From contig OY761459.1 of NCBI GenBank assembly GCA_963664485.1, positions 709,275-773,274 of the forward strand: a stretch of DNA of 64,000 nucleotides. The letters are read 5' to 3'. Shown one piece after another: positions 3,513-38,813 of the stretch. The notes beneath the pieces were generated by a model that saw only the letters and a program-made list of their open reading frames with translations, did not search any database and had not been told where the DNA came from. The translations under genes were made by a program, and so were the position numbers. The first letter of the stretch is position 1, and every line of letters starts with the position of its first letter. This DNA is from Syntrophales bacterium (GTDB taxonomy: Bacteria; Desulfobacterota; Syntrophia; Syntrophales; UBA2210).

Positions 3513-3513
3513 A

Positions 3514-6895: not shown

Positions 6896-6897
6896 AA

Positions 6898-7635: not shown

Positions 7636-7678
7636 GTCGGGAACGTCCGTAAAGCCGTTTGGTCGTGTCAGGCTTTAC

Positions 7679-8020: not shown

Positions 8021-8038
8021 GATTCATATCCTCGAAAA

Positions 8039-8479: not shown

Positions 8480-8852
8480 AAATCGAATCTCTCGCGCAAA
8501 CTTCCTGGATACACCCGGAAACGCCTTTCTGAAAAAGCCTTCCGCATGTCTCAAACATGATATATTTTGTACTCAGAAGCGGTATCCCCAACTCATTGGC
8601 AATTTCGATGCTCTGATCCAGGGGCACCTTGCCGCGACAGAATATAATGGCCACAATATCGAGTGCATAGGCAGTACGCACGCATTGCGGAGTAACAAGA
8701 CCCGTTATAAGCAGACACCCGTGACGGGCAAATGCAAGAACATCACTCATGAGGTCTGCTCCGAAGGCTGTTTTTATATCGATTTGCAACTGATCGTCAG
8801 TCCCAACAATTACCCTAGCATCCAAAGTGTCGCATATTTCAGCCAGTTTCAC
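8463..8852 (-). CDS. DRTGG-domain protein (second paralogue)
   Basis: 129 aa. ..AFGADLMSDVLAFARHGCLLITGLVTPQCVRTA..DIVAIIFCRG fits the DRTGG-like pattern. GTG start preceded by GGGGG. Confidence 0.6.
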   Translation of the reverse strand: MKLAEICDTLDARVIVGTDDQLQIDIKTAFGADLMSDVLAFARHGCLLITGLVTPQCVRTAYALDIVAIIFCRGKVPLDQSIEIANELGIPLLSTKYIMFETCGRLFQKGVSGCIQEVCARDSICENSE

Positions 8853-8881
8853 GAGAACCCCCTCTTATGTCTAATTCGCTG

Positions 8882-8910
8882 TGACTAGCATATGCTATCG
8901 TGCATGTCAA
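8882..8910 (-). promoter_or_regulatory. Candidate sigma70 promoter for the DRTGG/GHKL/PHP gene set
   Basis: On the minus strand: TTGACA (8910-8905), a 17-nt spacer, then TAGTCA (8887-8882). It sits about 30 nt upstream of the GTG at 8852. The -10 element is weak. Confidence 0.3.
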
Positions 8911-9191
8911 CATAATCTGCAGATCGGAATCAAGGTTGGTAGCCTTACCATCTTGTTTTCACTAATCAATTCCTGTCTATGAAAATTTTAAACAAATCAT
9001 AAACCGGCTCGAGAGGGACAGCAATCGCGTGTCATGATACTACCGGGAGAAATATCATCTTTTATCAAGAATCAGTCTGCAAGAGTAATTATTGTTGAGA
9101 CAACGAGTGAGGCTATAATCAAAGGTTTGTCATATATCAGCCCTGCCGGCACCGTTGATAAGCGCCGCGATGCGCACGAACTTTAGAAAAA

Positions 9192-9310
9192 ATTGAATCT
9201 CCCCGCAACAAGTTGCGGGGAATCTCCGACTGTTAAGGAATTTTTCATTTTTTATTCGCTCGCTAACCCCGCCGCAAGCAGCGGGGAATGCGCTCGCTGT
9301 TCAGTTCAGG
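9192..9310. repeat. Intergenic hairpin-bearing repeat, copy A (composite, with an extra 34-nt module)
   Basis: 9192-9264 matches 26371-26443 at 72 of 73 positions. It contains the hairpin CCCCGCAAC-aa-GTTGCGGGG. 9265-9298 is an insertion carrying a second hairpin (CCCCGCCGC-aa-GCAGCGGGG) + GAAT and ending in a duplicated CGCTCGCT. Homology to copy B resumes at GTTCA. Confidence 0.9.
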
Positions 9311-9542
9311 ATTAACCTGTTTTCCCGATAAGTTATTTGTCGATACAACCGTCTTGCGTTACAGATTTCATCTTCTTTGTACTGCCAGACATAAAGAATC
9401 CAGGCTCAAAACAAGAGCCTGGATTCCGATACATACTCTATTCTGTTCTTATACGCTGATCTAGGGAGCCGGGCTTGCTATAATCCATACCACGGTGTCC
9501 CGAAGTGTTATATTCTTTATTTTTCTATCTGCAAACCATTCC

Positions 9543-12230
9543 TTAAGCTACTTTTTTTATTTTTACCGCACTTATTTTGTATTCAGGAATGTTGGCAACA
9601 GGATCAAACGCCGGGTTTGTAAGGCGGTTAACTGCGGCCTCACTATAATGGAACGGGATGAAGACAATTCCCTCTCCACATCGGTCATTTACCTCAGCAA
9701 AAACTTCGATGGTACCCCTGCGGGAAGTAATCGCAAGTTTATCACCCTGATTGACACCGAGTTTCACAGCATCGCCCGGATTAATTTCCACAAACACCTC
9801 CGGGGTTCTGGAAACGAGACCTCGGGACCTTCTACTCATAGTGGCGGTATGGAACTGATACAGGATTCTGCCTGTAGAGAGTATATATGGATACTCATCA
9901 TCAGGCATCTCGGCGGGTGGCTTATGTTCACAAACACTGAAAAGACCCTTGCCACGAGTAAATGCTGTTGAATGCAGAATCGGTGTCCCGGGATGCTCTA
10001 TATTGGGGCAAGGCCACGGTATACCAACATCTTGAATACGTTCATATGTGATACCCGCATAAGACACCGTTAATTTGTTTATCTCGTCCATGATCTCTCG
10101 TGCATTTGCGTACTTCCAGTCCGCACCTAGCTTGTTGGCTAGCATACTGATCACTTTCCAGTCAGGTTTTGCCTCCCCCGGTGCATCAACAGCCTTCCTG
10201 ATTAGCTGCACCCTTCTTTCCGTATTAGTAAACGTTCCGTCCTTTTCTACCCAGCATGCAGTGGGTAATACCACGTCAGCCAGTTCTCCTGTCTCATTCA
10301 GGAAGATGTCCTGAACAATCAGGAGATCAAGATTCTCGAAGGCCTTTTTCACATGATTTATATCAGGATCAGACATCATAGGGTTCTCACCCATGACATA
10401 CAGAGCTTTCAATGACCTATCGGCAGCAGCGTCGATTATCGCGGGTATTGTAAGACCCGGCTTTTCCGGAAGCGTTACGCCCCACGCATCTTCAAAAGGT
10501 TTCCTGTCAGCTGCCTCGGTTACCTTCTTATATGCAGGCAGATTCCCCGGAAGACATGCCATGTCGCAAGCACCCTGAACATTATTCTGCCCACGCAGAG
10601 GATTCACCCCTGTACCCGGCCGTCCGATATTACCGGTGAGCATAGCCAAGTTTGCACAGGATTTCACATTATCCGTTCCAACAGTGTGCTGCGTGATACC
10701 CATTGCATAAACAATGGCCGCCGCATCAGCTCCCGCGTACATCCGAGCTGCCGCCTTCAAATCTTCGGCAGAAACTCCGGTTATTTCTTCGACATACTCC
10801 GGCGTATATTTACCCACAGTCTCTTTTAAGGCATCAAAATTTTCCGTTCTTTCAGAGATAAAGTCGTTGTCTGCAAGACCTTCTTGAATTATGACATTCA
10901 TCAACCCGTTCAACAAAGCAATATCTGTTCCCGGAGTATGCCTTAGCTGTATTGTTGCAAACTTTGCAATTTCTATATTTCTGGGGTCGGCAAGAACAAG
11001 CTTGGCTCCTTTTTGTGTTACAGCTCTCTTGATAAAGGTGGAAATGACCGGATGATTCTCTGTAGTATTCGTCCCTATAATCAAGAAACAACGAGCCTCC
11101 TCTAAATCTGCGATAGAGTTCGTCATTGCTCCTGAACCGAACGCAGCGGCCAGACCGGCCACTGTTGAGCTATGTCAGAGCCGGGCACAGTGATCGACAT
11201 TGTTTGTTCCGATAACCGCCCGCATAAATTTCTGGAACAGGTAATTTTCCTCATTGGTACATCTTGCTGAGGAGAGGCCCGCAATCGCGTCCGGACCATT
11301 TTCCTGTTTGATCTTATTGAGTTTTTCCGCAACATATCCTATTGCCTCATCCCAACCGACTTCCTTCAGTTCTCCATCAACTCTGATCATCGGCGTTGTA
11401 AGCCTGTCTGGATGATCCACAAAATCGTATCCGAATCGTCCCTTTATACAAAGACTACCGTTATTTGGTGGCGGGGCACCTTCCCTTGGGGTTGTTACCT
11501 TTACTATCTTCCCTTCTTTCACATTCAGATCCATCTGACAGCCGACGCCACAGTATCCACAGGTAGTGCGAACTTTATCAAGATCGTTACCCCTGCCCTT
11601 AAAACGCCCCTGTTTTTCAAAGAGCGCTCCAACCGGACATATACGAACACACTCTCCACAAAAGACACAATCAGAATCTTCATATCGCAACCCAAACGCC
11701 GGGCCGACCGCAGCAGTCGGTCCTCTTCCGGTATAATCGAGCACCTGATTGACCTGTATTTCGTTACAGGCCCTCACACACAGGCCGCATAATACGCACT
11801 TGTTCATATCCCGAACGATCATCTCGTTGGCCTGTTCGTATTCCTTAACAGTCTCAGGCATACCAAAACGGGGAATATCGATGCCGAGTGCATAGACAAG
11901 ATCCTGCAGCACGCACTGTCCGCTGCTTTCGCAGGTAATACAATTATGGTGTCCCTGGGTCAGAAGCAACTCGACAGCCAGTTTACGCGCCTGTAAGACA
12001 CGCTTCGTGTTAGTATGAACGATCATGCCGTTTTCCGCAGGCATCGCACAGGAAGCAACGAGAGCCCTTGTCTTTTCCACTTCAACAACACATACCCTGC
12101 AGGCCCCAACGGGCTTTAATTGCTCATGGTGACACAGAACCGGTATATAAATGCCGTTATCCTTAGCTACTTCATATACGGTCTGCCCAGGTGTAAATTC
12201 AAATTCCCTATCATCTATGATTATACCCAT
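9543..12230 (-). CDS. fdhA: Formate dehydrogenase catalytic subunit, selenocysteine-containing (895 aa; TGA at 11175-11177 read as Sec), with NuoG/HydA-like N-terminal Fe-S domains
   Basis: ORFs 11175..12230 and 9543..11162 share one frame and are separated only by a TGA: ..[30 protein letters not shown]. N-terminus: a 2Fe-2S domain (CHHEQLKPVGACRVCVVEV), an HxxxC..C cluster and two CxxCxxCxxxCP ferredoxin motifs. This is followed by the molybdopterin 4Fe-4S motif (CGYCGVGC) and bis-MGD domains. Confidence 0.9.
11144..11164 (-). other. SECIS-like hairpin downstream of the fdhA UGA
   Basis: The mRNA reads UGA-CAUAGCUCAA-CAGUGGCC-GGUCU-GGCCGCUG. This gives an 8-bp stem (one G-U pair) and a 5-nt loop containing GGUC, starting 10 nt after the UGA. 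Confidence 0.6.
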
Positions 12231-12251: not shown

Positions 12252-15200
12252 CTATTCTATCTCCGCGTCGCAACGCAAGCATCGGCAAGCTTCTTTGTAA
12301 GCAACTTCCTTCGAGTAACCCAGTTCTACTTCCTTGAAATTCGATGTTCTCTCAACAGTTTTCAATTCCGGCATTTCGGCTCTGGGTGTTTCTATCGTGT
12401 CTTCATCAACTTCAAACGGAATATCAATCTTTTCCTCGGGAGGCTCTTGATAGGCCGGTCCCCCGCTCTTTGCACGGAGATAACTGTCAATATCGATTGC
12501 AGCCTGATGCCCCATGGCAATAGCCTCAACCACCGTGGCTGGTCCGCTGGCTGCATCACCAGCAATAAAAACTCCTTCTGCGGTAGTTGCCGTTTTAGAC
12601 CCCTCGGCGATCTTGATACCGCCCCACTTGTTGCAACCGATTCCGGAATCCTCCGGGATAAAGGAGGTATCCGAATTCTGGGAAATCGCCGGCACTATCG
12701 TGTCTATGCTCAGCACAAATTCACTTCCTTCGATCGGTTTCGGACGGCGTCTGCCTGAACGATCAAATTCGGCCAGTCGCATCCTCTGACACTCGACACC
12801 GGTGACCTTTCCGGTTTCCCCGATAATTCTGACAGGGGCAACCAGATATTCAATCTTGACTCCCTCATGCTCGGCGGCCACTATTTCGTTTTCCCAGGCA
12901 GGCATGTCCTTGCGTTCGCGACGATAAAGTATCGTTACATTATTGGCACCAAGCCGTATCGATGTCCTGGCAGCATCGATTGCGGAATTACCACCACCGA
13001 CAATTGCCACATTGCTGCCGACCTTTACCTTATTGCCCAGGTTGACCTCACGCAGGAATTCGGTAGCCCCCCAGACTCCTTCAAGATTCTCACCTTCAAC
13101 GTCCAGGGCCCAGCTTTTGTGAGCACCGATCGCCAACATTACGATATCGAAATCCTTGCGAAGTTCGCCATAGGTAATTTCCCGTCCAATCCTGATGTTG
13201 GTCTTGATCTCCACCCCCAGGGCTTTAATATCCGCAACCTCACTATCGACGATATCCCGCGGCATACGATATTCGGGGATTGCATAACGCATCATTCCAC
13301 CGGCATACGGTAATTCTTCAAATACCGTAACTTTGTAACCGCGTTTTGCCAGATCCTGAGCGGCTGTCAATCCGGCCGGACCGGCCCCGACAATGGCTAT
13401 TGTCTCATTACGAGTAACCGGGACCCTTTCCACCTTCGGATGATTGCTGTTATCTGCGATAAAACGCTTGATCCAGGCAATCGCCATCGGCTCATCCAGT
13501 TGTCCGCGACGGCATTTGGAGGCACAGAACTGCGGGCATACCCGGCCGCATACACCGGGGAAAGGATTGGTACGTTTCATGACTTTGTAGGCATCGTCCA
13601 GTCTGTCGGCTCTCACGAGCGCGATGTAAGCCGGAACATCCATCTCTATCGGGCAGGCATGCTGACAGGGAGACTTGAACATATCAGAACATACACACGC
13701 CGGACATTTCTTGTCATAGATGTGGGCCTCGTATTCATCCCTGAAATACCGGATAGTCGACAGTATCGGATTCGGCGCCGTCTGACCCAACCCGCACAGG
13801 GCCGAGTCCTTGATCGTTACCGCCAGGTCTTCCAGCATCTCGATATCACCGTGTTTTCCTTCACCCCTGCAGATCCTTTCAAGAATCTCGAGCATCCTTT
13901 TGGTACCTTCACGGCAGGGAGTACATTTACCGCAGGATTCCTCCTGGCAGAACTCCATGAAAAACCGTGCCGTATCAACCATACAGGTGTCTTCATCCAT
14001 AACGATGAGGCCACCGGAACCCATGATAGCACCCATCTTGATAATATCTTCATAATCGGTGAGCGTGTTAAGCCCCTCGGCCGGGATACATCCGCCGGAC
14101 GGACCGCCAAGCTGTGCGGCCTTGAACTGCTTTCCTCCCGGAATACCTCCGCCGATATCGAAAATGATGTCCCCCATAGGCGTTCCCATGGGAACTTCGA
14201 CCAACCCTACATTATTTACCGCACCGGTAAGGGCGAACACCTTAGTTCCCTTGGATCTTTCGGTTCCGATCGAAGAATACCAGTCGCCGCCTTTAAGGAT
14301 TATCTGTGCCACGTTGGCATAAGTTTCAACATTGTTCAGGACAGACGGTTTTCCCCAGAGACCCTTGTTAGCGGGAAATGGCGGACGCGGACGCGGCATC
14401 CCGCGTTTTCCTTCGATGGAATTCATCAAGGCTGTCTCCTCACCACATACAAATGCGCCGGCGCCCTGATAGATCTCTATATCGAGACTGTACCCGGTAC
14501 CGAGAATATCATCGCCCAGTAAACCGTATTCCTTAGCCTGCTTGATCGCAAGTGTAAGCCGCTTAATTGCCAGCGGGTACTCGGCACGGCAATAGATATA
14601 CCCCTTGTGCGCGCCGATGGTATATCCTCCGATGATCATACCTTCCAGTACCGCATGAGGGTCGGCTTCCAGGATGGACCTGTCCATGAACGCTCCAGGG
14701 TCACCTTCGTCGGCATTACAGAGGATGTATTTGACATCACCCTGGGCTTTCTGAGCGAACGACCATTTTAACCCGGTCGGGAATCCTCCGCCACCACGGC
14801 CGCGCAGCCCCGATTTTTTCATCTCTTCGACAACTTCTTCGGGCGTCATCTGAGTCAATACCTTAGCCACTGCCATATAGCCGTCACGTGCGATATATTC
14901 GTCAATCTTCTCCGCGTCGATCAAGCCTCTGTTTTTCAGGGCAATGAGCTTCTGCTTTCCGAAGAATGGGATATCCAGCATATGAGGAATGGCCTCTTCG
15001 GTAATCGGTTCTTTAAACATCAACCGCTCGACCGGACGACCTTTAACGATATGTTCTTCGATAATCTCAGGCACATCTTCCTTTGTTACGTACTGGTAGA
15101 ATGTCCCTTCCGGATATATCACCATTATCGGGCCGGCAGCACAAAAGCCGTTACATCCCGTTTCAACAACCACGACCTCTTCGGTGAGCCCTCTGGTCGC

Positions 15201-15296
15201 AAGTTCTTGCACAAGTGCTGCGTGGATTCCTTCGCTGCCGGTCGCACGGCAACCGGTTCCACCACAGATTAGTATGTGTGCTCGAAAAACCTTCAT
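12252..15296 (-). CDS. NuoF-like (FMN/NADH, 4Fe-4S) subunit fused to a GltD/NfnB-like FAD/NAD(P)H oxidoreductase module (1014 aa)
   Basis: N-terminal thioredoxin-like 2Fe-2S module (ILICGGTGC..GCNGFCAAGP). NuoF motifs GRGGGGFPTGLKW, NADEGDPGAFMDR and ESCGKCTPCREG. Then NPFPGVCGRVCPQFCASKC, IAIVGAGPAGLTAAQDL and VAIVGGGNSAIDAART, which are the GltD-type Fe-S motif plus two Rossmann dinucleotide folds. Confidence 0.88.
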   Translation of the reverse strand: MKVFRAHILICGGTGCRATGSEGIHAALVQELATRGLTEEVVVVETGCNGFCAAGPIMVIYPEGTFYQYVTKEDVPEIIEEHIVKGRPVERLMFKEPITEEAIPHMLDIPFFGKQKLIALKNRGLIDAEKIDEYIARDGYMAVAKVLTQMTPEEVVEEMKKSGLRGRGGGGFPTGLKWSFAQKAQGDVKYILCNADEGDPGAFMDRSILEADPHAVLEGMIIGGYTIGAHKGYIYCRAEYPLAIKRLTLAIKQAKEYGLLGDDILGTGYSLDIEIYQGAGAFVCGEETALMNSIEGKRGMPRPRPPFPANKGLWGKPSVLNNVETYANVAQIILKGGDWYSSIGTERSKGTKVFALTGAVNNVGLVEVPMGTPMGDIIFDIGGGIPGGKQFKAAQLGGPSGGCIPAEGLNTLTDYEDIIKMGAIMGSGGLIVMDEDTCMVDTARFFMEFCQEESCGKCTPCREGTKRMLEILERICRGEGKHGDIEMLEDLAVTIKDSALCGLGQTAPNPILSTIRYFRDEYEAHIYDKKCPACVCSDMFKSPCQHACPIEMDVPAYIALVRADRLDDAYKVMKRTNPFPGVCGRVCPQFCASKCRRGQLDEPMAIAWIKRFIADNSNHPKVERVPVTRNETIAIVGAGPAGLTAAQDLAKRGYKVTVFEELPYAGGMMRYAIPEYRMPRDIVDSEVADIKALGVEIKTNIRIGREITYGELRKDFDIVMLAIGAHKSWALDVEGENLEGVWGATEFLREVNLGNKVKVGSNVAIVGGGNSAIDAARTSIRLGANNVTILYRRERKDMPAWENEIVAAEHEGVKIEYLVAPVRIIGETGKVTGVECQRMRLAEFDRSGRRRPKPIEGSEFVLSIDTIVPAISQNSDTSFIPEDSGIGCNKWGGIKIAEGSKTATTAEGVFIAGDAASGPATVVEAIAMGHQAAIDIDSYLRAKSGGPAYQEPPEEKIDIPFEVDEDTIETPRAEMPELKTVERTSNFKEVELGYSKEVAYKEACRCLRCDAEIE

Positions 15297-15307
15297 CTGA
15301 TCCCCCT

Positions 15308-15688
15308 CTAATCCTGTTCCCTGCCCCGGGCCATTACAAAATCCGACTGGATTTCGTCATTCATAATATGTCTTTTGAAAATCTGCCGCGCCTTGTTAGA
15401 CGTCAGATATTCATAAACAATAGGATCCTTGCCCTGTTCCTCTACTGTCGCAAGCGGCTCCTTGCTACAGATACCGATACATCCAGAGGTGGTAACGATA
15501 ACATCTTCTGAATTACTCTCACCAACCTCTTTTATAAAAGTGTCAAGAATCTCTTTGGCTCCGGAGGCAATCCCGCAGGTTCCCATATGAACGGTAATCT
15601 TGAAGCGTTTATTACCGATCCTGAATTGATCTTCTTTTTCAACCCGTTCTTTTATCTTTTTTAAATCATCAATGGTAAGTTTAGCCAT
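15308..15688 (-). CDS. Thioredoxin-like [2Fe-2S] ferredoxin-domain subunit
   Basis: ITVHMGTCGIASGA...TTSGCIGICSKEP shows the Cys pattern of the NuoE/HydC-type 2Fe-2S fold. I prefer the start at ATG 15688 (MAKLTIDD) because AGGAGG lies 6 nt upstream. The tracked start at 15715 would overlap the upstream gene. Confidence 0.75.
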   Translation of the reverse strand: MAKLTIDDLKKIKERVEKEDQFRIGNKRFKITVHMGTCGIASGAKEILDTFIKEVGESNSEDVIVTTSGCIGICSKEPLATVEEQGKDPIVYEYLTSNKARQIFKRHIMNDEIQSDFVMARGREQD

Positions 15689-15698
15689 TTCATTCCTC

Positions 15699-16205
15699 CT
15701 AGCTGTACTGGGCAAGCAGTTGCTCCAGTTTTGCCGGTTTCACCCTTCCATGAGTATCGTCGTCGACTACCACCACAGGTGCCAGCCCACAGGCTCCCAG
15801 GCACCGCACGGTTTCCAGAGAAAACATCCTGTCCTGTGTACAATGCCCGCTCTCGATGCCGAGAATCCCACTGCACCGTTCCAGACTCCTCTTCCCGCCC
15901 CTGACATAACAGGCGGTTCCGAGACAGACCCTGATAACGTGTTTTCCTCGGGGAACCATCGTGAAAAATGAATAGAAGGTGACAACTCCGTAAACGTTTG
16001 CCACCGGCAGGTTCAAACCTTTCGCGACCCGCGTTTGAATCGCCATGGGAAGATATCCGCATACATCTTGAACCCGCTCCAATACCGGGATTAAAGCGCC
16101 GGGCTTACCTGCGTATTTCTCGATAATTTCATCAACTCGAGCCAATTGCTCCGCAGTAAAATCCGACAGTTCCGCATTTACTTGAGATGCATTTTTATCT
16201 GTCAC
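15699..16205 (-). CDS. NuoE-like (24-kDa type) [2Fe-2S] subunit
   Basis: ..VIRVCLGTACYVRGG...ETVRCLGACGLAPVVVVDD.. matches the NuoE/HydC cluster motif. GTG start preceded by GGGGG. Confidence 0.88.
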   Translation of the reverse strand: MTDKNASQVNAELSDFTAEQLARVDEIIEKYAGKPGALIPVLERVQDVCGYLPMAIQTRVAKGLNLPVANVYGVVTFYSFFTMVPRGKHVIRVCLGTACYVRGGKRSLERCSGILGIESGHCTQDRMFSLETVRCLGACGLAPVVVVDDDTHGRVKPAKLEQLLAQYS

Positions 16206-16252
16206 TTTATCCCCCTTATCTGATAGCTGTTAAGCTGTTATTTTTCAACGGC

Positions 16253-16296
16253 CCTATAACACGCATCGCTGATCCTGGCAAGCATAATTTAAGCCC
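16253..16296 (-). promoter_or_regulatory. Promoter region of the FDH operon, with overlapping sigma70-like and weak sigma54-like candidates
   Basis: Minus strand, sigma70-like: TTGCCA (16281-16276), 17-nt spacer, TATAGG (16258-16253). Minus strand, sigma54-like: GGGCTTAAATTATGCT (16296-16281) has GG-N10-GC spacing but a poor match outside GGC/TGCT. Confidence 0.3.
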
Positions 16297-16459
16297 GTTT
16301 ATAATTGTAATGTGTCTAAATATAATCAGTTACAAAAGCATAAAAGTAAAGTCCGCTCCGTACATCGACACAAGAACACAGCACACCCTTTAACGCGGAC
16401 GGCTATGGAGTACAACAAACCGGAAAAGATCTGAGATTTTATTCTGTTAATGTTAATTG

Positions 16460-16861
16460 CTACTTGCGTTTTCCTCTGAAGGGGGCAATCTCTCCGATAA
16501 AAATACCCACCTGGATTCCCACACATCCGAGAAACAAACCGATTATTGTAGAAACAGCATAGAACGTATCTACCGCAACGGAAGGCACGACGGTAACACC
16601 GGCAAATATGAGCAGAAAAACAAAGATACCGGCCGCCACATAGCTGGGACGTGAAGGTGCAATCTTTACGGCGACAAAGGTGGTTACCGCACCCAGGTAC
16701 AGGTACGCCGCAGCATCCATGATTATCTTCATTAAACCTTCGGGTGGATGGCCCGTGAGCAGATCAACCGAAAAGTTATTAACAGCGCCACCGATGGCAT
16801 ATGCGACATATCCGCAAATAACGGATACCGGAAAAAATAAGATCCAACGAACGATTTGCAT
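16460..16861 (-). CDS. Small integral membrane protein, four predicted TM helices, unknown function
   Basis: 133 aa with four hydrophobic stretches (ILFFPVSVICGYVAYAIGG; AAAYLYLGAVTTFVAV; VAAGIFVFLLIFAGVTVV; IIGLFLGCVGIQVGIFIG). I recognise no family motif. Confidence 0.5.
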   Translation of the reverse strand: MQIVRWILFFPVSVICGYVAYAIGGAVNNFSVDLLTGHPPEGLMKIIMDAAAYLYLGAVTTFVAVKIAPSRPSYVAAGIFVFLLIFAGVTVVPSVAVDTFYAVSTIIGLFLGCVGIQVGIFIGEIAPFRGKRK

Positions 16862-18327: not shown

Positions 18328-19737
18328 CTATTCGCTCCCCCCACCCAGCACCGTGTAAAACATCACCTGGTTGGCGACCTTCGCGAGGCGGAGCAAAACT
18401 AGTCCCTGCTGCGCCGCATAGAGAGACCTTTGAGCATCGAGAACACCCAGGTAGCTGTCGATCCCCTTCGTATAACGTTCGTTTGAGAGACGATATGTTT
18501 CATCAACGGCATGTACCAGTGATTCCTGCGCCGCCAGCCTCTGATTTATCGTACTCCGAACGGCAAGGGTGTCGGCCACTTCCTTGAAGGCCGTCTGAAT
18601 CGCTTTTTCGTATTGAGTCAGAGCGATCTCCCGTTCGACCTGAGTCACATCATATGCCGCCCATGTACGGGCATCGAAAATCGGCATGACAATCTGCGGC
18701 GAGAAACTCCACGTTCCCGATCCGCCCTTAAAGAGTCCCGACAAGTCGGCGCTCGCAGTCCCAACCGTTGTCGTCAAGGCAATCCGCGGGAAGAAAGCCG
18801 CCCGGGCCGCCCCTATATTTGCATAGGCCCCTTTGAGTTGATGCTCCGCCTGAAGGATATCGGGACGAAGAAGAAGAATCTCCGAACTCATGCGGGGAGA
18901 AAATTCTTCTGGAGGAATGACACTGTCCAGATCAACCGGCAGAAGATCTTCCGGTACCGGCGAGCCTAGTAACAGGTCTAAAGTGTTTTTATCTTGCGCT
19001 ACCTGCTGTACATAGCGGGCGAGTTCTTCCCGGGCGGTATAGACCTGCGTCTGTGACTGGCGCAGTGCCAGTTCGTTTACAACTCCGACATCGTAACGCT
19101 TTTGCGTCAAATCAAAGGCGGCCTGTCGTGTTTTCAACGTTGCCTGAGCCAGTTTGAGCGCCTCCCGATCCGCGGCAAGGGTCAGATACGCTCCGGCAAC
19201 CGCGGATATCAGCGAGATCTGAGCACTTCGCCCTGCCTCAGTCGTGGCCAAAAATTCCTGCAACGCCTGATCTTTCAGGTTGCGAATGCGACCAAAGAAG
19301 TCTATTTCCCAGGAGCTGATCCCCAGACTGACACCGTATTCTTCGGCAATTCTCGATTTTCCGGTGGTTGAGAGCTCGGCAGGTATCCGCTTTTTAATCC
19401 CGCTTCCGGCCGCATTTACCGTCGGCAGGAGTTCGGCCCGTTGAATACCGTAAAGCGCCCTTGCTCTCTCTACGTTCAGGGCGGCAAGCCTCAGATCGCG
19501 ATTATTTTCCAGGGCCATTTCGATGACCTTCTTAAGATGCTCATCCGTAAAAAAATCCCGCCATGTCAACTCATGTACAACCTGGGAAACGGCCGAGATA
19601 TCCGAACTTTCAGGGGCGGCAACATCTTCCCAGCCTGCAGGGACCGGTGCCTCGGGGCGCGTATATTCCGGGGCGAGAGAACAGCCGCTCAGGAGAAATA
19701 CCAGCCCAATCAGTATAAAAGACAGTTGCTTATTCAT
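18328..19737 (-). CDS. RND efflux outer-membrane lipoprotein (NodT/OprM family)
   Basis: I prefer the start at ATG 19737 (MNKQLSFILIGLVFLLSGC, a lipobox), which overlaps the RND stop by 8 nt. The body shows the two-repeat TolC-like helical pattern. Confidence 0.88.
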   Translation of the reverse strand: MNKQLSFILIGLVFLLSGCSLAPEYTRPEAPVPAGWEDVAAPESSDISAVSQVVHELTWRDFFTDEHLKKVIEMALENNRDLRLAALNVERARALYGIQRAELLPTVNAAGSGIKKRIPAELSTTGKSRIAEEYGVSLGISSWEIDFFGRIRNLKDQALQEFLATTEAGRSAQISLISAVAGAYLTLAADREALKLAQATLKTRQAAFDLTQKRYDVGVVNELALRQSQTQVYTAREELARYVQQVAQDKNTLDLLLGSPVPEDLLPVDLDSVIPPEEFSPRMSSEILLLRPDILQAEHQLKGAYANIGAARAAFFPRIALTTTVGTASADLSGLFKGGSGTWSFSPQIVMPIFDARTWAAYDVTQVEREIALTQYEKAIQTAFKEVADTLAVRSTINQRLAAQESLVHAVDETYRLSNERYTKGIDSYLGVLDAQRSLYAAQQGLVLLRLAKVANQVMFYTVLGGGSE

Positions 19738-22700
19738 TGACTCGCCCCCCCGATTGATTAGTTGTATTTTGACCGGCGGAACCGCGTCTACTCTGCTTAC
19801 CGAATATCCTCTCGACCAGCACATAGAAAAACGGGGAGAAGATAACCACCAGAACGGTGGCGGTTATCATTCCGCCCAACACCCCGGTTCCGATGGCATT
19901 CTGTGCGCCCGCTCCGGCGCCCTTGGTTATCGTGAGCGGTAAAACCCCGAATCCGAAGGCCAGTGAGGTCATGACAATCGGACGGAATCTCAACTTCGCC
20001 CCTTCGAGCGTGGCTTCGATCAGTCCCATTCCTTTCATCATACCGGCCTTCGCGAATTGTACGATCAGGATCGCATTTTTCGTAGCCAGACCCATCGTGG
20101 TCAAAAGACCGATCTGGAAATAGACATCGTTGGACATACCCCGCATACTGGATGCCATGATTCCTCCTATTACTCCAAGGGGCAGTATCAAAAGGATTGA
20201 AATGGGTATGGTCCAGCTTTCATAAAGAGCCGCCAGGCACAGAAAGATCACGAAAACCGAAAACGCGTACAGCAGGGGTGCCTGAGAACTCGACATACGC
20301 TCCTGATACGAAAGACCGGTCCAGTCGAAACCTACCCCCTGCGGTAATTTTGTAACCGCCTCTTCCATAGCCTTCATCGCTTCACCCGAACTCCTTCCCG
20401 GAGCAGGCTCACCCCAGATATTGATGGAAGGGAAACCGTTGAAACGTTCCAGTCTCGGGGAACCGGATGTCCAGCGACCGGAGGCGAAAGAGGAAAAGGG
20501 AACCATTGTACCCGACATATTGCGGACATTGAGTTTATCTATATCCCTGGGGAGCATACGATAAGGGGCATCCGCCTGTACATAAACACGTTTGACCTCG
20601 CCGCCTTTTACAAAATCGTTGACATATGCGCTGCCGAAGGCCGTAGCGAGTGTGCTGTGAATCGAAGTAATGGGAATCCCCAGCGCTCCCGCCTTTTCCC
20701 AGTCCACATCGACACGGTATTCGGGAACATCTTCCATGCCGTTGGGACGGACGGAGGTCAATCGCGGGTCCTGTGAAGCAATACCCAGGAGCTGATTCCG
20801 GATATTCATCAAGTTTGCATGCCCGAGACCGCCCCGGTCCAGAAGTTCAAAATTAAATCCTTTCGCGATACCCAGCTCCGCAACCGCCGGCGGAGGGAAA
20901 ACAAATATCATGGCGTTTCTTATACTTGAAAGTGCAACGGTTGCCCTGCCGGCTATGGCCTTGGCCTTAAGATCGCTGCGATTTCTGAGTTCCCAGTCTC
21001 TCAATCTCACAAACACCATGCCATTGTTCTGTGACCTTCCGGAGAAGCTTATACCTGTAAGTGTCATACAGGATTCTACCGCTTCTTTCTCATGCTCTTT
21101 GAAGTATTGTTCAATCTTTTTAGCGACTTCTCTGGTCTGTTCCAGGGTAGCTCCCTTGGGCATAATGACCTGGGCAAGTAATACCCCCTGATCTTCCTCG
21201 GGCAGGTAGGAGGTAGGCATCCTCAGATACAGGAAACCCATGACAGCCACGATCATCAAGAAAATGACAAGGTAACGGATTTTTCTGGTAAGGGAGTATC
21301 CCACTAACTTCACATAATAATCTCTGATGCTGAAAAAGACTCGATCGAACCATTTAAAAAACGGCCTCAGGAAAAAAATCGCATTTTCAGCAGGTTCATG
21401 CCCGGCCTCCACCGGCTTGAGCAGAGAAGCGCAGAGAACCGGCGTCAGTATCAGAGCCACGACAACCGACAGCAGCATAGAGGCAATTATGGTTATGGAA
21501 AACTGGCGATAGATTATACCGGTCGAACCAGGGAAAAACGCCATGGGTCCGAAAACCGCCGAGAGCACGAGCCCGATACCTATAAGGGCACTTGTGATCT
21601 GCTCCATCGATTTTGCGGTTGCCTCCTTGGGAGGCAACCCTTCCTCGCTCATTATCCGTTCCACGTTTTCAACCACCACGATAGCATCGTCCACCAGGAG
21701 TCCGATAGCAAGCACCATGGCAAACATGGTCAGCATGTTTATGGAAAATCCGAAAAGTCCCAGCATCGCGAAGGTTCCCAGTATAACAACGGGTACCGCG
21801 ATCGTGGGAATCAAAGTGGCCCTCATATTGCCCAGGAACAGCCACATGACCAGGAATACGAGCAGAATCGCTTCGAAGAGGGTCTTTACGACTTCATTAA
21901 TGGCAACACTGATGAAGGGAGTCGTATCGTACGGGTAAACGACCTTCAACCCCGCAGGGAAGAACCTGCTCAGCTCCTCCATCTTTGCCTTGACCGCATC
22001 GGCAGTATCAAGGGCATTCGCCCCCGCAGCCTGCCGGATTGCCAGACCTGAGGCGGGTCTGCCGTCATATTCGGCCTCTATATCGTACACTTCTGTTCCC
22101 AGCTCTACCGTGCCGACATCACGCACCCTTACAATGGAACCGTCCTGGTTGATCCGTACAGGTACATCGGCAAATTCATCGGGTGTTTTGAGCATGTTCT
22201 GGACTACGATGGAAGCGTTCAGCCGCTGGTCTTCAACTGCGGGGGCACCACCCAGCTGTCCGGCGGAAACTTCCACGTTGTATGATTTCAGTGCGGTTAT
22301 GACATCCGTTATTGTCAACTGGTAATCCGTCAACTTGTCGGGATTGAGCCAGATACGCATGGCGTATCCGCTTCCATAGATCATAACCTCGCCGACACCC
22401 GGGACACGCGCCAATATTTTTTCCAGATTTGATTTTGCGTAGTCCTGAATATCAGACCTGTCCATGCTGCCGTCTTCCGATATAAGGCCGACTACCAGCA
22501 GATAATTATGTGTGGATTTGTTTACCGTTACCCCTCTCGTTCTGACAGCTTCAGGAAGGCTGGCCGTTGCGGTCTGGAGTTTGTTCTGAACCTGGGACCA
22601 TGCAAAATCGGGGTCGGTCCCCGCTTCGAAAGTAAGTTCTATGCGCGAGCTTCCGGATGAATCGCTTGTGGCAGACATGTACAGCATCCTGTCCAGCCCG

Positions 22701-22915: not shown

Positions 22916-22931
22916 GTGCCTCCGTAAGTCG

Positions 22932-24137: not shown

Positions 24138-24154
24138 TAGACTCTCCTCTTATT

Positions 24155-24188: not shown

Positions 24189-24244
24189 ATTACGGCGTAT
24201 AATTACCTTATTCTTTAAATGATTACAAAAAACCTGTTTGTATC

Positions 24245-38802: not shown

Positions 38803-38813
38803 TATCTTTATTT

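What the first reader, a model, noticed from the sequence alone, without database searches (positions are those of the whole stretch)
12252..16205. Soluble FDH whose NuoF-like subunit is fused to a GltD/NfnB-like module: two flavin/pyridine-nucleotide sites in one polypeptide
Seen:
- The 1014-aa ORF strings together a thioredoxin-like 2Fe-2S module, a complete NuoF core and a second oxidoreductase module.
- The NuoF core has GRGGGGFPTGLKW, NADEGDPGAF and ESCGKCTPCREG.
- The second module has NPFPGVCGRVCPQFCASKC plus two Rossmann motifs, IAIVGAGPAGL and VAIVGGGNSAID.
- It is flanked by a NuoE-like gene, a small 2Fe-2S ferredoxin-like gene and the Sec-FdhA. Intergenic gaps are only 10-21 nt, so this is a single operon.

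Established:
- NuoEF-type modules are the NADH/FMN entry point of soluble FDHs and of bifurcating HydABC-type hydrogenases.
- GltD/NfnB-type modules carry the FAD/NADPH site of NfnAB-type transhydrogenases.

Inference:
- This enzyme could couple formate/CO2 to two different nucleotide pools, or run flavin-based electron bifurcation or confurcation.
- I cannot judge from sequence whether this exact architecture has been characterised biochemically.
Basis: partly seen in the sequence, partly recalled or inferred. Interest (0 to 1): 0.7.

Follow-up and report, generated by a model that had tools for sequence, protein, structure and literature searches.

The report
Formate dehydrogenase with NADH-plus-NADPH flavoprotein fusion
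A selenium-dependent formate dehydrogenase operon encodes an electron-transfer subunit whose usual ferredoxin-docking tail is replaced by an FAD/NADPH module. The enzyme probably links formate/CO2 to both NADH and NADPH; the fused subunit has been noted before next to hydrogenases but has never been tested biochemically.

Summary
Window 12252-15296 (-) is one uninterrupted 1014-aa ORF. It contains a thioredoxin-like [2Fe-2S] domain, a full NuoF core (FMN, [4Fe-4S]) and a GltD-type module (two [4Fe-4S], FAD, NADP(H)). It lies in the operon nuoE-like / hndB-like / fusion / Sec-fdhA, with gaps of 10-21 nt.

The N-terminal half is 66-70% identical to HydB/BfuB of proven electron-bifurcating enzymes. 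Straight after the conserved Zn-linker motif, the GltD module replaces the ferredoxin-like C-terminal domain (clusters B3/B4). That domain is the ferredoxin port of these enzymes. The module is the circularly permuted StnC type, with a Lys cluster ligand and GxGxxA/YRR NADP(H) motifs. It is not the bifurcating NfnB type.

The fusion is a conserved family with more than 120 clusters at 90% identity. It pairs with Sec-FdhA in 30 related loci and with [FeFe]-hydrogenase in 21.

A 2024 paper already described this fused subunit as "sub-type I BfuB" in hydrogenase clusters. I found no biochemistry and no description of the FDH-linked form.

Most likely the enzyme couples CO2/formate to NAD(H) plus NADP(H) without ferredoxin. 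Whether the two nucleotides are obligatorily coupled cannot be told from sequence.

The parts
15699..16205 (-). nuoE/hydC/bfuC-like gene (168 aa). It carries the [2Fe-2S] cluster 'C1' on Cys94, 99, 135 and 139.
   Evidence: Pfam 2Fe-2S_thioredx E 1e-50. The best PDB match is HydC of the bifurcating NiFe-HydABCSL, 7t2r_C, E 2e-48. The four Cys are invariant in 71 homologues.
15308..15688 (-). hndB/bfuD-like small thioredoxin-like protein (126 aa from the ATG at 15688; the ORF is listed from a TTG at 15715). Only three Cys are conserved (C38, C70, C74), with Ser at the position of the fourth, so its cofactor is uncertain.
   Evidence: Pfam 2Fe-2S_thioredx E 2e-5. It is most similar to the N-terminal domain of StnB/NfnB (8oh5_B, E 7e-11). 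Conservation in 54 homologues is.
12252..15296 (-). The 1014-aa fusion: a BfuB/HydB/NuoF-like flavoprotein whose C-terminal ferredoxin-like domain is replaced by a GltD-type FAD/NADP(H) module.
15012..15296 (-). aa 1-95: N-terminal thioredoxin-like [2Fe-2S] domain (Bfu site 'B5'), with Cys11, 16, 48 and 52.
   Evidence: Pfam. It aligns with 7t2r_B from residue 1.
13719..14912 (-). aa 129-526: NuoF core with the FMN and NAD(P)H site, the SLBB domain and the four-helix [4Fe-4S] domain ('B1'; Cys455, 458, 461, 501).
   Evidence: TIGR01959 nuoF_fam E 7e-154. It is 66-70% identical to the HydB of bifurcating enzymes. Motif residues are invariant in alignment A1.
13689..13724 (-). aa 525-536: the linker motif H-I-Y-D-K-K-C-P-A-C-V-C (His525, Cys531, Cys536). 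This is the Zn ('B2') site of Bfu enzymes and the point where the domain swap occurs.
   Evidence: The motif aligns with HIKDKRCPAKIC / HIRDKKCPAGVC of 7t2r_B, 7q4v_B, 9bov_B and 8oh5_B. H525, C531 and C536 are invariant. Unfused relatives continue from this point with two CxxCxxCxxxCP motifs.
13437..13676 (-). aa 541-620: GltD Fe-S domain (Fer4_20) with Cys544, 548, 583, 587, 591 and 595, plus Lys610. Lys610 aligns with the cluster ligand Lys170 of StnC.
   Evidence: Pfam Fer4_20. The role of StnC K170, with Glu in NfnB, is from PMC10482914.
12462..13409 (-). aa 630-945: two Rossmann folds. The FAD site is GAGPAG (637-642). The NADP(H) site is GGGNSA (767-772, the GxGxxA pattern) followed by YRR (791-793). 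Arg677 aligns with StnC R239 and NfnB R201.
   Evidence: Pfam Pyr_redox_2 E 2e-31. The YRR..MPA motif is shared with five solved NADPH-binding homologues. [quoted passage not shown] This is the only well-modelled part of the AF2 model, with pLDDT mostly 80-94 over aa ~620-950.
12255..12374 (-). aa 975-1014: the C-terminal tail 'ERTSNFKEVELGYSKEVAYKEACRCLRCDAEIE'. It is homologous to the N-terminus of free-standing NfnB/GltD, so the module is circularly permuted. Cys1006 and Cys1009 complete the eight ligands needed for the two [4Fe-4S] clusters.
   Evidence: HMMER aligns the tail with residues 7-43 of 4ylf_B and 8-48 of 5jca_L as a second stretch. In StnC, Csac NfnA and T. sibiricus NfnA the same segment follows the GltD core. 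R1005, R1008, C1009 and D1010 are invariant and C1006 is at least 90% conserved.
9543..12230 (-). fdhA (895 codons): a NuoG-like N-terminus ([2Fe-2S] plus four [4Fe-4S] motifs) followed by the molybdo/tungstopterin catalytic domain. It acts as the 'BfuA' subunit.
   Evidence: TIGR01591 902 bits against a cut-off of 666. It matches FdsA-type structures over its full length (6tg9_A, 9wxb_B).
11175..11177 (-). In-frame TGA, read as the selenocysteine codon (HCARL-U-HSS).
   Evidence: The same codon is TGA in 30 and TGC/TGT (Cys) in 8 of 38 homologous fdhA genes.
11144..11164 (-). 8-bp GC-rich hairpin starting 11 nt after the TGA; a candidate bacterial SECIS element.
   Evidence: strand folding shows the hairpin in both the MFE and the centroid structure. 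The z-score for the whole 71-nt stretch is not significant (-0.47).
9395..9427 (-). 13-bp terminator-like hairpin about 115 nt after the fdhA stop; the probable end of the operon.
   Evidence: scan_promoters_terminators.

Best explanation
The 1014-aa protein is the flavoprotein subunit of a four-subunit cytoplasmic, selenocysteine-dependent (W or Mo) formate dehydrogenase/CO2 reductase. The enzyme belongs to the HydABC/Hnd ('Bfu') lineage. Its subunits are FdhA (= BfuA), a NuoE-like protein (= BfuC), an HndB-like protein (= BfuD) and this fusion (= BfuB). The fusion keeps the whole Bfu core: the N-terminal [2Fe-2S] domain, the FMN/nicotinamide site, [4Fe-4S] cluster B1 and the Zn-linker. The ferredoxin-docking C-terminal domain (clusters B3/B4) has been exchanged for a circularly permuted GltD module of the StnC / FDH(NADP+)-beta type, with two [4Fe-4S] clusters, FAD and an NADP(H) site. 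Proposed working: NAD(H) exchanges a hydride with FMN. NADP(H) exchanges a hydride with FAD, which passes single electrons through its two [4Fe-4S] clusters into the B1/C1 region. From there the Fe-S chain of FdhA leads to the Sec-pterin site. The net reaction would be 2 CO2 + NADH + NADPH <-> 2 formate + NAD+ + NADP+, without ferredoxin, with NADP(H) at about -380 mV taking the role of the low-potential partner. What is shown: the domain anatomy, the conserved cofactor ligands, the exact site of the domain swap, the conservation of the family and its two catalytic partners. What is inferred: the nucleotide specificities, the wiring of the GltD clusters into the core, the absence of ferredoxin, and whether the two nucleotides are obligatorily coupled (confurcation/bifurcation) or used independently.
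For: Domains and motifs are established. The N-half is 66-70% identical to the HydB of experimentally bifurcating enzymes up to residue ~543, against 39-40% to the non-bifurcating FdsB. NuoE is closest to bifurcating HydC. Close unfused relatives, 77-79% identical over aa 1-540, carry the canonical 73-aa tail (HIxDKRCPAGIC followed by two CxxCxxCxxxCP motifs) exactly where this protein starts its GltD module. In Bfu enzymes B3/B4 form the ferredoxin site, and deleting them abolishes bifurcation (PMC11829005; PMC10482914). The GltD module aligns from 541 to 1010 with StnC, Csac NfnA and T. sibiricus NfnA (E 1e-105 to 1e-124). It has all eight cluster ligands, including the tail Cys pair and Lys610 (= StnC K170), plus the FAD motif and the GxGxxA and YRR NADP(H) motifs. 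Residues 408-1009 are 41% identical to a ~650-aa family with the architecture NADH_4Fe-4S + Fer4_20 + Pyr_redox_2, which JGI names 'formate dehydrogenase beta subunit'. The purified NADP-dependent W-Se FDH of Moorella has an SfrB-type beta subunit (PMC13040438), and SfrB is GltD-like (PMC7483475). A GltD-type NADP(H) port on an FDH therefore has biochemical precedent. The catalytic subunit looks functional: it exceeds the TIGR01591 cut-off and shows Sec/Cys interchange at the TGA. All cofactor residues are invariant across a family reaching down to about 54% identity. The same module serves FdhA in 30 loci and [FeFe]-HydA in 21.
Against: There are no biochemical data for any member of the family (literature searches). 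The position of the GltD clusters relative to B1, C1 and FdhA is unknown. The AF2 model was poor (pLDDT 69, pTM 0.47) and coordinates could not be inspected. Under standard conditions formate (-420 mV) can reduce both NAD+ and NADP+ without any coupling, so bifurcation is not thermodynamically required. Some Bfu enzymes are reported to use NADP(H) at the FMN site (C. autoethanogenum: title of Wang 2013a as listed; T. kivui from my own knowledge), so 'FMN = NADH' is an assumption. Ferredoxin could still dock on the GltD clusters, as it does on NfnB. More distant homologues (P0151, P0161) retain a di-cluster ferredoxin domain after the GltD module.
Confidence: 0.55

Rival explanations
1. A dual-port, non-bifurcating enzyme. 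The FMN/NAD(H) site and the FAD/NADP(H) site feed the same Fe-S wire independently, so the FDH works with either nucleotide, and possibly has a transhydrogenase side activity. There is no energetic coupling.
For: The ~650-aa family named 'formate dehydrogenase beta subunit' (the [4Fe-4S] domain of NuoF plus the GltD module, 41% identical to aa 408-1009) has no FMN domain. The Moorella NADP-FDH works with an SfrB-type beta subunit. Together these suggest the GltD chain can deliver electrons to an FdhA directly. Formate can reduce both nucleotides exergonically under standard conditions. The Stn-type FAD is non-bifurcating.
Against: All Bfu-specific extras are retained and invariant: the N-terminal [2Fe-2S] domain, the Zn-linker, the C1 cluster on NuoE and the BfuD subunit. 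Known non-bifurcating relatives have lost several of these features. An uncoupled NADH/NADPH link would collapse the cell's NADH/NADPH disequilibrium.
Confidence: 0.25
2. Two bifurcation centres. The GltD FAD acts like the bifurcating FAD of NfnB, and ferredoxin docks on the GltD [4Fe-4S] clusters. The enzyme would then handle formate, NAD, NADP and ferredoxin. This is the suggestion made for sub-type I hydrogenases in PMC11406978 and one of the first reader's options.
For: The module is homologous to NfnB/NfnL (E 1e-100). Arg677 aligns with NfnB R201. Cys583 is present as in NfnB but absent from StnC. The idea is published.
Against: There is no NfnA/NfnS-like partner in the operon. The cluster ligand is Lys610 as in the non-bifurcating StnC, not Glu as in NfnB. 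The module is closer to StnC/NfnA-Bfu than to NfnB and shares their permuted topology. The conserved Arg is also present in StnC, where it does not contact N5.
Confidence: 0.12
3. The GltD module is a structural or vestigial remnant, like the dead FdhF domain of StnC, and the enzyme is an ordinary NAD(H)-only or NAD(H)+ferredoxin FDH.
For: Stn shows that large inactive domains can persist in this family.
Against: Every FAD, NADP(H) and cluster-ligand motif is invariant or nearly so across homologues down to about 54% identity. In the dead domain of Stn, by contrast, the pterin-binding features are lost. With B3/B4 absent there is no other obvious ferredoxin site.
Confidence: 0.05
4. The fused ORF is an assembly or annotation artefact, and is really two genes.
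For: None found.
Against: The ORF is continuous in the window. It is also continuous in more than 120 independent protein clusters and about 55 loci from different studies. Only isolated frameshifts occur, in two MAGs (L025 and L041).
Confidence: 0.01

Closest known systems
[quoted passage not shown]
   Same: It is the same fused subunit, with the B3/B4 domain replaced by a DPD_II (Fer4_20) domain plus an FAD/NAD(P) domain. It often comes with the small BfuD subunit. It is uncharacterised. 21 of the related loci here are exactly this hydrogenase form.
   Different: In this window the catalytic subunit is a Sec-FdhA rather than an [FeFe]-hydrogenase. I did not find the FDH-linked form described in the literature. 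The paper did not note the circular permutation, the Lys ligand or the link to FDH(NADP+) beta subunits.
Stn / NfnABC (Nfn-Bfu) transhydrogenases (S. ovata 8oh5, C. saccharolyticus 9bov, T. sibiricus 9n5u)
   Same: They have the same three kinds of parts: a BfuB/BfuC core, a permuted GltD module with FAD/NADPH and two [4Fe-4S] clusters (40-45% identical, with the Lys ligand), and an FDH-like domain.
   Different: In Stn the GltD module is inserted in the BfuA subunit, on the mid-potential input arm. The FDH domain is catalytically dead, and BfuB keeps its ferredoxin-binding B3/B4 domain. Here GltD sits on BfuB in place of B3/B4, and the FDH is intact with Sec.
HndABCD of Solidesulfovibrio (Desulfovibrio) fructosovorans and HydABC electron-bifurcating hydrogenases
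   Same: The gene order matches (nuoE-like, small thioredoxin-like, nuoF-like, catalytic subunit) and the core is 66-70% identical to HydB. Database names for homologues include 'HndC'.
   Different: HndC/HydB end in a two-[4Fe-4S] ferredoxin-like domain and use ferredoxin. This protein ends in FAD/NADP(H), and the catalytic subunit is an FDH.
Electron-bifurcating FDH HylABC-FdhF2 (Gottschalkia acidurici) and other Fdh-Bfu enzymes (PMC9304861)
   Same: A Bfu core coupled to a Sec/W formate dehydrogenase. FdhA itself serves as BfuA, as in the 'Type 1' Fdh-Bfu.
   Different: Those enzymes have a canonical BfuB with B3/B4 and reduce ferredoxin plus NAD+. They have no FAD/NADP(H) module.
NADP+-dependent W-Se formate dehydrogenase of Moorella thermoacetica (alpha2beta2; beta subunit encoded by sfrB2) and SfrAB of Geobacter
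   Same: A GltD-type NADP(H)/FAD subunit hands electrons to a Sec-FdhA. Residues 408-1009 of the fusion are 41% identical to a ~650-aa family with this domain order, which JGI names 'formate dehydrogenase beta subunit'.
   Different: Those beta subunits lack the FMN/NAD(H) domain and the N-terminal [2Fe-2S] domain, and they have no NuoE or HndB partners. I did not compare directly with the Moorella or Geobacter sequences.
NAD+-dependent FdsABG (Rhodobacter capsulatus 6tg9, Cupriavidus necator 6vw7)
   Same: FdhA matches FdsA over its full length, and a NuoE/NuoF-like diaphorase is present.
   Different: FdsB is only 39-40% identical, is non-bifurcating, and has neither B3/B4 nor a GltD module.
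NfnAB / NfnSL
   Same: The large subunit is homologous to the GltD module (4ylf_B, 5jca_L; E ~1e-100).
   Different: NfnB has a Glu cluster ligand, unpermuted topology and an NfnA partner, and its FAD bifurcates. None of these applies here.

Membership tests
Bfu (HydABC-type) electron-bifurcating enzyme family | BfuB with a NuoF-like FMN/NAD(P)H core and [4Fe-4S] cluster B1 | tested here: met
   Complex1_51K and NADH_4Fe-4S domains are found. Identity to 7t2r_B and 7q4v_B is 66-70%. Cys455, 458, 461 and 501 and the FMN motifs are invariant.
Bfu (HydABC-type) electron-bifurcating enzyme family | BfuC (NuoE-like) with [2Fe-2S] cluster C1 | tested here: met
   The four Cys are invariant, and the best matches are HydC of bifurcating enzymes.
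Bfu (HydABC-type) electron-bifurcating enzyme family | N-terminal thioredoxin-like domain (site B5) and Zn/'B2' linker motif on BfuB | tested here: met
   Cys11, 16, 48 and 52 are present. His525, Cys531 and Cys536 align with the HIxDKxCPAxxC motif of solved BfuB chains. Metal occupancy is not testable.
Bfu (HydABC-type) electron-bifurcating enzyme family | C-terminal ferredoxin-like domain with [4Fe-4S] clusters B3 and B4 (the ferredoxin site, needed for bifurcation) | tested here: not met
   Alignments to all solved BfuB chains stop at residues ~540-543. A GltD module follows instead. Unfused relatives have the canonical domain at this position.
Bfu (HydABC-type) electron-bifurcating enzyme family | BfuA with a NuoG-like Fe-S N-terminus carrying the third-substrate site | tested here: met
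   FdhA has Fer2_4, NADH-G_4Fe-4S_3, Fer4 and Molybdopterin domains and matches FdsA over its full length.
Bfu (HydABC-type) electron-bifurcating enzyme family | Demonstrated coupled reduction of NAD+ and ferredoxin | not testable with these tools
   This needs enzyme assays.
Sub-type I BfuB complexes (PMC11406978) | B3/B4 domain replaced by DPD_II (Fer4_20) plus a C-terminal FAD/NAD(P) domain | tested here: met
Sub-type I BfuB complexes (PMC11406978) | Catalytic partner is a group A3 [FeFe]-hydrogenase | tested here: not met
   The partner in this window is a Sec-FdhA. The hydrogenase partner is found in 21 related loci, e.g. L005, which also has HydG and HydE.
Stn / NfnABC transhydrogenase | Permuted GltD module with FAD, NADPH, two [4Fe-4S] clusters and a Lys cluster ligand | tested here: met
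   Lys610 aligns with StnC K170, and the tail Cys1006/1009 align with the RCLEC motif of StnC.
Stn / NfnABC transhydrogenase | GltD module inserted in the BfuA subunit next to a catalytically dead FdhF-like domain; BfuB has B3/B4 | tested here: not met
   Here GltD is on BfuB. FdhA has Sec and passes the FDH-alpha cut-off. B3/B4 are absent.
NfnAB (NfnSL) | NfnA/NfnS partner (FNR-like, [2Fe-2S], second FAD), Glu-ligated proximal cluster, unpermuted NfnB | tested here: not met
   The operon has no such gene. The ligand is Lys rather than Glu, and the N-terminal segment has moved to the C-terminus. The rest of the genome outside the window was not available.
NADP+-dependent FDH beta subunit / SfrB-like family | Domain order NADH_4Fe-4S, Fer4_20, Pyr_redox_2 with an RCLRC tail, partnered with an FdhA | tested here: met
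   This order is met as a sub-region: aa 408-1009 are 41% identical to P0208. The family's domains are shown and its source names. A direct comparison with Moorella FdhB or Geobacter SfrB was not done.
NADP+-dependent FDH beta subunit / SfrB-like family | No FMN domain and no NuoE partner (a two-subunit enzyme) | tested here: not met
   The fusion has a full FMN core, and the operon encodes NuoE- and HndB-like subunits.
Selenocysteine-containing formate dehydrogenase alpha subunit (TIGR01591) | Score above the curated cut-off, with an in-frame UGA at the Sec/Cys active-site position followed by His | tested here: met
   902.5 bits against a cut-off of 666.25. The sequence reads HCARL-U-HSS. 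The codon is TGA in 30 and a Cys codon in 8 of 38 homologues.
Selenocysteine-containing formate dehydrogenase alpha subunit (TIGR01591) | SECIS hairpin directly downstream of the UGA | tested here: inconclusive
   An 8-bp hairpin starts 11 nt after the UGA, but the folding z-score is not significant and covariation was not analysed.

The most novel reading that the evidence does not exclude
The complex, and its hydrogenase-linked sister complexes, may be a ferredoxin-independent member of the Bfu family. It would use the B1-FMN-C1 site to couple NADH and NADPH obligatorily (1:1) to CO2 or proton reduction. NADPH would replace reduced ferredoxin as the 'driving' low-potential donor. Syntrophic bacteria could then push NADH electrons onto formate or H2 at higher formate/H2 levels than NADH alone allows, without paying for ferredoxin reduction through Rnf. 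This would be a new reaction type for the family.
Probability: 0.3. Interest if true: 0.8.

Novelty: new variant of a known kind. Interest (0 to 1): 0.55.

Why it matters
Bfu-type enzymes set the thermodynamic limits of H2 and formate production in anaerobic food webs, digesters and syntrophic cultures. Their bifurcation mechanism is still debated. This variant replaces the ferredoxin port with a hard-wired FAD/NADP(H) site. It is abundant in Desulfomonilia/Syntrophales-type bacteria, including Ca. Phosphitivorax (locus L014), whose published metabolic models treat the enzyme as an ordinary NADH+ferredoxin HndABCD.

If NADPH really replaces ferredoxin, those models and their energy budgets change. 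The family would also offer a ferredoxin-free system, with soluble and optically trackable substrates only, for dissecting how the B1-FMN-C1 site splits or merges electron pairs. It would be a candidate catalyst for CO2 reduction driven by nicotinamide cofactors. If the two sites turn out to be independent, it is still the first FDH type with both NAD(H) and NADP(H) ports in one polypeptide.

Tried and rejected
- **Structure prediction.** The AlphaFold2 model of the fusion, built from a 27-sequence alignment, was poor (mean pLDDT 69, pTM 0.47; cofactor regions and tail below 50). I used it only for a Foldseek check. That check recovered the two halves separately and found no solved chain covering both. 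Inter-cofactor distances could not be measured.
- **Sigma-54 promoter.** I looked upstream of nuoE because an NtrC-type regulator lies nearby. There is no match in 16206-16460, and the window-wide count is not above chance.
- **Source contig.** The look-up of encoding contigs found nothing on record for the identical protein P0001, so the organism is inferred only from relatives.
- **SECIS.** A hairpin is present, but the z-score is not significant. The Sec assignment rests on the Sec/Cys interchange.
- **Literature.** Nine searches for a described or characterised NuoF-GltD / HydB-GltD / HndC-GltD fusion gave only the 2024 bioinformatic note. The supplement of the Bfu family paper held as text has no entries for the relevant genera. 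Syntrophus aciditrophicus FdhB-2 and FdhB-4 are a different, non-bifurcating type. The Pelobacter carbinolicus paper describes hndA1B1C1 genes next to an FDH gene but mentions no GltD module in HndC.
- **Rejected readings.** I rejected artefactual gene fusion, a vestigial GltD module, and simple membership of NfnAB or of Stn. Defining features of both families were tested and not met.

Full report
**1. The observation**

The region holds four co-directional genes on the minus strand. They are a NuoE-like gene (15699-16205), a small thioredoxin-like gene (ORF 15308-15715, probable ATG at 15688), a 1014-aa ORF (12252-15296) and fdhA (9543-12230). The gaps computed from these coordinates are 10, 11 and 21 nt.

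Translating fdhA shows one in-frame TGA at 11175-11177 in the context HCARL*HSS. With Cys substituted at that position, the protein scores 902 bits against TIGR01591 (cut-off 666).

- 2Fe-2S_thioredx, aa 5-81
- Complex1_51K, aa 159-330
- SLBB, aa 353-402
- NADH_4Fe-4S, aa 441-525
- Fer4_20, aa 535-618
- Pyr_redox_2, aa 633-929

All six quoted motifs are present. A 13-bp terminator-like hairpin follows fdhA at 9395-9427. The operon is therefore nuoE-hndB-fusion-fdhA.

**2. The fusion is real and conserved**

A search of 5.8 billion proteins returned more than 120 clusters (at 90% identity) of full-length homologues. They are 1011-1054 aa long and at least 67% identical. All come from Desulfomonilia, Syntrophales/Syntrophaceae or 'Deltaproteobacteria' MAGs, and are named NuoF, HndC, 'hydrogenase' or 'FAD-dependent oxidoreductase'.

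A scan of one genome per species gave 78 loci. About 55 of them carry the continuous fused ORF. Besides the groups above, these include Desulfobacteraceae, Desulfatiglandales, a Peptococcaceae bin, a Synergistaceae bin and Ca. Phosphitivorax Phox-21 (L014).

An exhaustive HMMER search of 1.84 billion cluster representatives at 50% identity found about ten further full-length fusion clusters, down to 36% identity. It also found many contig-truncated ORFs that cross the junction.

Assembly artefact is excluded. The identical protein sits on a 2.59-Mb contig, but its record could not be retrieved. The organism is inferred to be a Desulfomonilia-like member of the Thermodesulfobacteriota.

**3. 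What each half is**

Against solved structures, residues 1-543 align end to end with the B subunits of proven electron-bifurcating 'Bfu' enzymes:
- A. mobile NiFe-HydABCSL, 7t2r_B, E 2e-255, 70% identity
- A. woodii HydB, 66% identity
- T. kivui and T. maritima HydB
- StnB and the NfnB subunits of NfnABC

The non-bifurcating FdsB is only 39-40% identical. The alignments run through the conserved linker motif (here H525-IYDKK-C531-PACV-C536) and then stop. In the solved enzymes this linker binds Zn (site B2). It leads into a small ferredoxin-like domain with two [4Fe-4S] clusters, B3 and B4. That domain is the proposed ferredoxin-reducing site, and its deletion abolishes bifurcation (PMC10482914; PMC11829005).

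Here residues 541-1010 instead align with the GltD-like, FAD/NADPH-binding region of:
- StnC (8oh5_C, residues 101-566)
- Csac NfnA (9bov_A)
- T. sibiricus NfnA (9n5u_A)
- more weakly, NfnB/NfnL and GltD

Close unfused relatives (L062, L064) are 77-79% identical over residues 1-540. They carry the canonical 73-residue tail, HIRDKRCPAGIC followed by two CxxCxxCxxxCP motifs, at exactly this point. The event is therefore a clean domain replacement after the Zn-linker, not a simple end-to-end gene fusion.

**4. Anatomy of the GltD module**

HMMER aligns the extreme C-terminus of the fusion (ERTSNFKEVELGYSKEVAYKEACRCLRC, aa ~975-1009) with the N-terminus of free-standing NfnB/NfnL (residues 7-48). 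In StnC and both NfnA proteins the same segment follows the Rossmann folds. The module is therefore a circular permutation of NfnB/GltD and has the same topology as the GltD insertion of Stn/NfnABC.

The tail supplies Cys1006 and Cys1009. With Cys544, 548, 587, 591 and 595 and Lys610, that makes eight ligands for two [4Fe-4S] clusters. His525, Cys531 and Cys536 are left free for the linker site. All of these residues are invariant or at least 90% conserved.

Further residue-level points:
- Lys610 aligns with StnC Lys170, an unusual cluster ligand that is Glu in NfnB (PMC10482914).
- Arg677 aligns with StnC R239 and NfnB R201.
- The FAD motif GAGPAG is intact.
- The second Rossmann fold has GGGNSA, the GxGxxA pattern proposed for NADP(H) in PMC7483475.
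- The YRR-x3-MPA motif is shared with five solved NADPH-binding homologues.

By these sequence features and its closest homologues, the module is of the Stn type, whose FAD was shown not to bifurcate. It does not resemble the NfnB type.

**5. A second relative**

Residues 408-1009 cover the [4Fe-4S] four-helix domain of NuoF, the linker and the GltD module. They are 41% identical to a large family of ~650-aa proteins with the domain order NADH_4Fe-4S, Fer4_20, Pyr_redox_2 and the same RCLRC tail. JGI names many of them 'formate dehydrogenase beta subunit'.

The classical NADP-dependent W-Se FDH of Moorella thermoacetica has a beta subunit encoded by sfrB2 (PMC13040438). SfrB is GltD-like (PMC7483475). 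I did not compare those sequences directly, so the equivalence is a lead rather than a test. Still, a GltD-type NADP(H) port on an FDH has biochemical precedent. The fusion can be read as a complete Bfu-type NuoF merged with such a beta subunit at their shared [4Fe-4S] domain.

**6. The other subunits**

- **NuoE-like.** It is closest to HydC of bifurcating enzymes (7t2r_C, E 2e-48) and has four invariant Cys.
- **Small protein.** It resembles the N-terminal domain of StnB/NfnB and has only three conserved Cys, with Ser at the fourth position. Its cofactor is uncertain ([2Fe-2S] or Zn). It corresponds to HndB/'BfuD'.
- **FdhA.** It has the NuoG-like N-terminus and matches FdsA-type structures over its full length. 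It therefore plays the BfuA role, as in 'Type 1 Fdh-Bfu' (PMC9304861). Across 38 homologous fdhA genes the active-site codon is TGA in 30 and TGC/TGT in 8. This is the expected Sec/Cys interchange. An 8-bp hairpin starts 11 nt after the TGA, but its folding z-score is not significant.

**7. Partner survey**

Among loci with the fused subunit and readable neighbours:
- 24 have Sec/Cys-fdhA downstream.
- 6 have fdhA upstream. These form a Desulfobacteraceae/Desulfatiglandales clade with the order fdhA-nuoE-fusion and no hndB-like gene detected except in L042.
- 20 have a gene whose N-terminus matches the Fe-S part of FdhA but which continues differently.
- 1 has both.

In L005 that alternative partner is a 600-aa [FeFe]-hydrogenase with H-cluster motifs TSCSPGW, MPCTAKK and CCPGGCVSGGGQP. 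It is followed by HydG- and HydE-like radical-SAM genes.

FDH-linked and hydrogenase-linked fusions interleave in a neighbour-joining tree. One MAG (JAKPQL01) carries two copies of the fusion (L009, L016). The NuoE-HndB-fusion set is thus a portable electron-handling module that swaps catalytic heads.

**8. What is already known**

A 2024 study of Hydrogenedentota hydrogenases describes 'sub-type I BfuB'. [quoted passage not shown] The authors speculate about a second, FAD-based bifurcation centre. They report related sub-type I BfuABC homologues in Syntrophus gentianae and Desulfotignum balticum (PMC11406978).

No biochemical or structural work on any member turned up in nine literature searches, and neither did any description of the FDH-linked form. 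Papers on Ca. Phosphitivorax treat the hydrogenase as a standard NADH+ferredoxin HndABCD, with 'HndC annotated as NuoF'. No solved chain covers both halves.

**9. How it most likely works**

*Shown:* the protein has intact sites for FMN and a nicotinamide nucleotide, for FAD and NADP(H), for one [2Fe-2S] and three [4Fe-4S] clusters, and for the linker metal. It lacks the ferredoxin-binding domain of its closest relatives. It is co-transcribed with an apparently functional Sec-FDH.

*Inferred:* NAD(H) reacts at FMN. NADP(H) reacts at FAD, which feeds single electrons through the two GltD clusters into the B1/C1 region of the Bfu core. The FdhA Fe-S chain connects this hub to the pterin-Sec site. 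The first GltD cluster ligands begin 8 residues after the last linker Cys, much as B3 follows the linker in HydB. I therefore favour the view that the GltD chain occupies the low-potential exit normally used for ferredoxin. The reaction would be 2 CO2 + NADH + NADPH <-> 2 formate + NAD+ + NADP+.

My own estimate is that at syntrophic formate or H2 levels the CO2/formate and H+/H2 couples lie near -300 to -330 mV. The physiological values given for NADH (about -280 mV) and NADPH (about -380 mV) in PMC9304861 bracket this range. A 1:1 confurcation would therefore be well poised. The strict retention of every Bfu-specific feature argues that the gating machinery is still in use.

*Against obligatory coupling:* the FDH(NADP+)-beta-like family suggests a GltD chain can serve an FdhA without any FMN site. 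Formate can reduce both nucleotides on its own. Some Bfu enzymes are reported to bind NADP(H) at the FMN site.

My confidences are 0.55 for the two-nucleotide, ferredoxin-independent reading overall and about 0.3 for obligatory coupling within it. The rivals get 0.25 for an uncoupled dual-port enzyme, about 0.12 for an NfnB-like second bifurcation site with ferredoxin, 0.05 for a vestigial module and 0.01 for an artefact.

**10. Verdict**

The finding is genuine and was correctly read at the domain level. It is not categorically new, because the fused subunit has been noticed in hydrogenase operons and all its parts belong to well-studied families.

The FDH-linked form adds several points I did not find in the literature:
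- the exact replacement of the ferredoxin port
- the permuted, Lys-ligated, Stn-type nature of the module
- its kinship with FDH(NADP+) beta subunits
- the head-swapping between FDH and hydrogenase

These define a testable, uncharacterised variant with real consequences for models of syntrophic metabolism.

Interest is 0.55. Novelty is 'new variant of a known kind'.

Noticed in passing
window 6347-8852 (-): Five small genes lie just downstream of the operon: DRTGG domain, HATPase_c-like, DRTGG domain, PHP domain, HATPase_c. The same set, in the same order, lies next to the FDH-linked or hydrogenase-linked fusion operon in at least 11 related loci (L001, L002, L006, L017, L024, L030, L031, L042, L058, L059, L061). 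It may be a dedicated regulatory module. In L042 and L059 a gap of 1.3-1.5 kb splits the set and was not examined.
   Followed up: partly
window 2124-6192 (-): A Cache-PAS histidine kinase (892 aa) and a sigma-54-dependent response regulator (462 aa) follow the small-gene set. No sigma-54 promoter consensus was found upstream of nuoE (16206-16460), and the window-wide count is not above chance. Their target is unknown.
   Followed up: partly
window 15308-15688 (-): The HndB/BfuD-like protein conserves only three Cys (C38, C70, C74), and an invariant Ser sits where the fourth Cys of a thioredoxin-like [2Fe-2S] site would be. His34 and His107 are also invariant. Its best structural relatives are the N-terminal domains of StnB/NfnB, for which the literature disagrees between [2Fe-2S] and Zn.
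   Followed up: partly
L005 9392-14115: The hydrogenase partner of the fused subunit has Ser in place of the second Cys of the TSCCP motif (TSCSPGW). It is followed by HydG- and HydE-like genes, and no HydF was seen within the locus. The 2024 paper notes Ser at this position as common in four of its five sub-types.
   Followed up: no
proteins P0161 (1130 aa) and P0151 (1038 aa): Distant full-length relatives keep a 4Fe-4S di-cluster ferredoxin domain after the GltD tail, so there GltD is inserted before the ferredoxin-like domain rather than replacing it. P0161 has also lost the FMN and [4Fe-4S] motifs of the NuoF core. These may be evolutionary intermediates or degenerate forms.
   Followed up: partly
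L029 9367-14817; L073 9557-14101: L029 has two fdhA genes after the fusion. One is a divergent Cys-type gene (FCTRFCH, 60%/48% identity) and the other a Sec-type gene. L073 (Synergistaceae bin) has a HydA-like gene and then a Sec-fdhA after the fusion. One electron module may serve two catalytic subunits.
   Followed up: no
window 8853-9542: The 690-nt stretch between fdhA and the DRTGG gene has no ORF of 60 aa or more on the minus strand. It contains two terminator-like hairpins on that strand (9395-9427 and 9199-9222). In related loci the corresponding gap is about 1.1-1.6 kb.
   Followed up: no
window 18328-24880 and 53781-59731 (-): The window holds two separate RND efflux systems, each with an outer-membrane factor, an AcrB-like pump and a membrane-fusion protein. 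The first has a TetR regulator beside it. They appear unrelated to the finding.
   Followed up: no
window 38308-39992 (-): A DUF2703 ORF (38308-39237) and an ArsP-type permease ORF (38814-39992) overlap by about 420 nt on the same strand. One start codon is probably mis-set, or the upstream part of the DUF2703 ORF is not coding.
   Followed up: no
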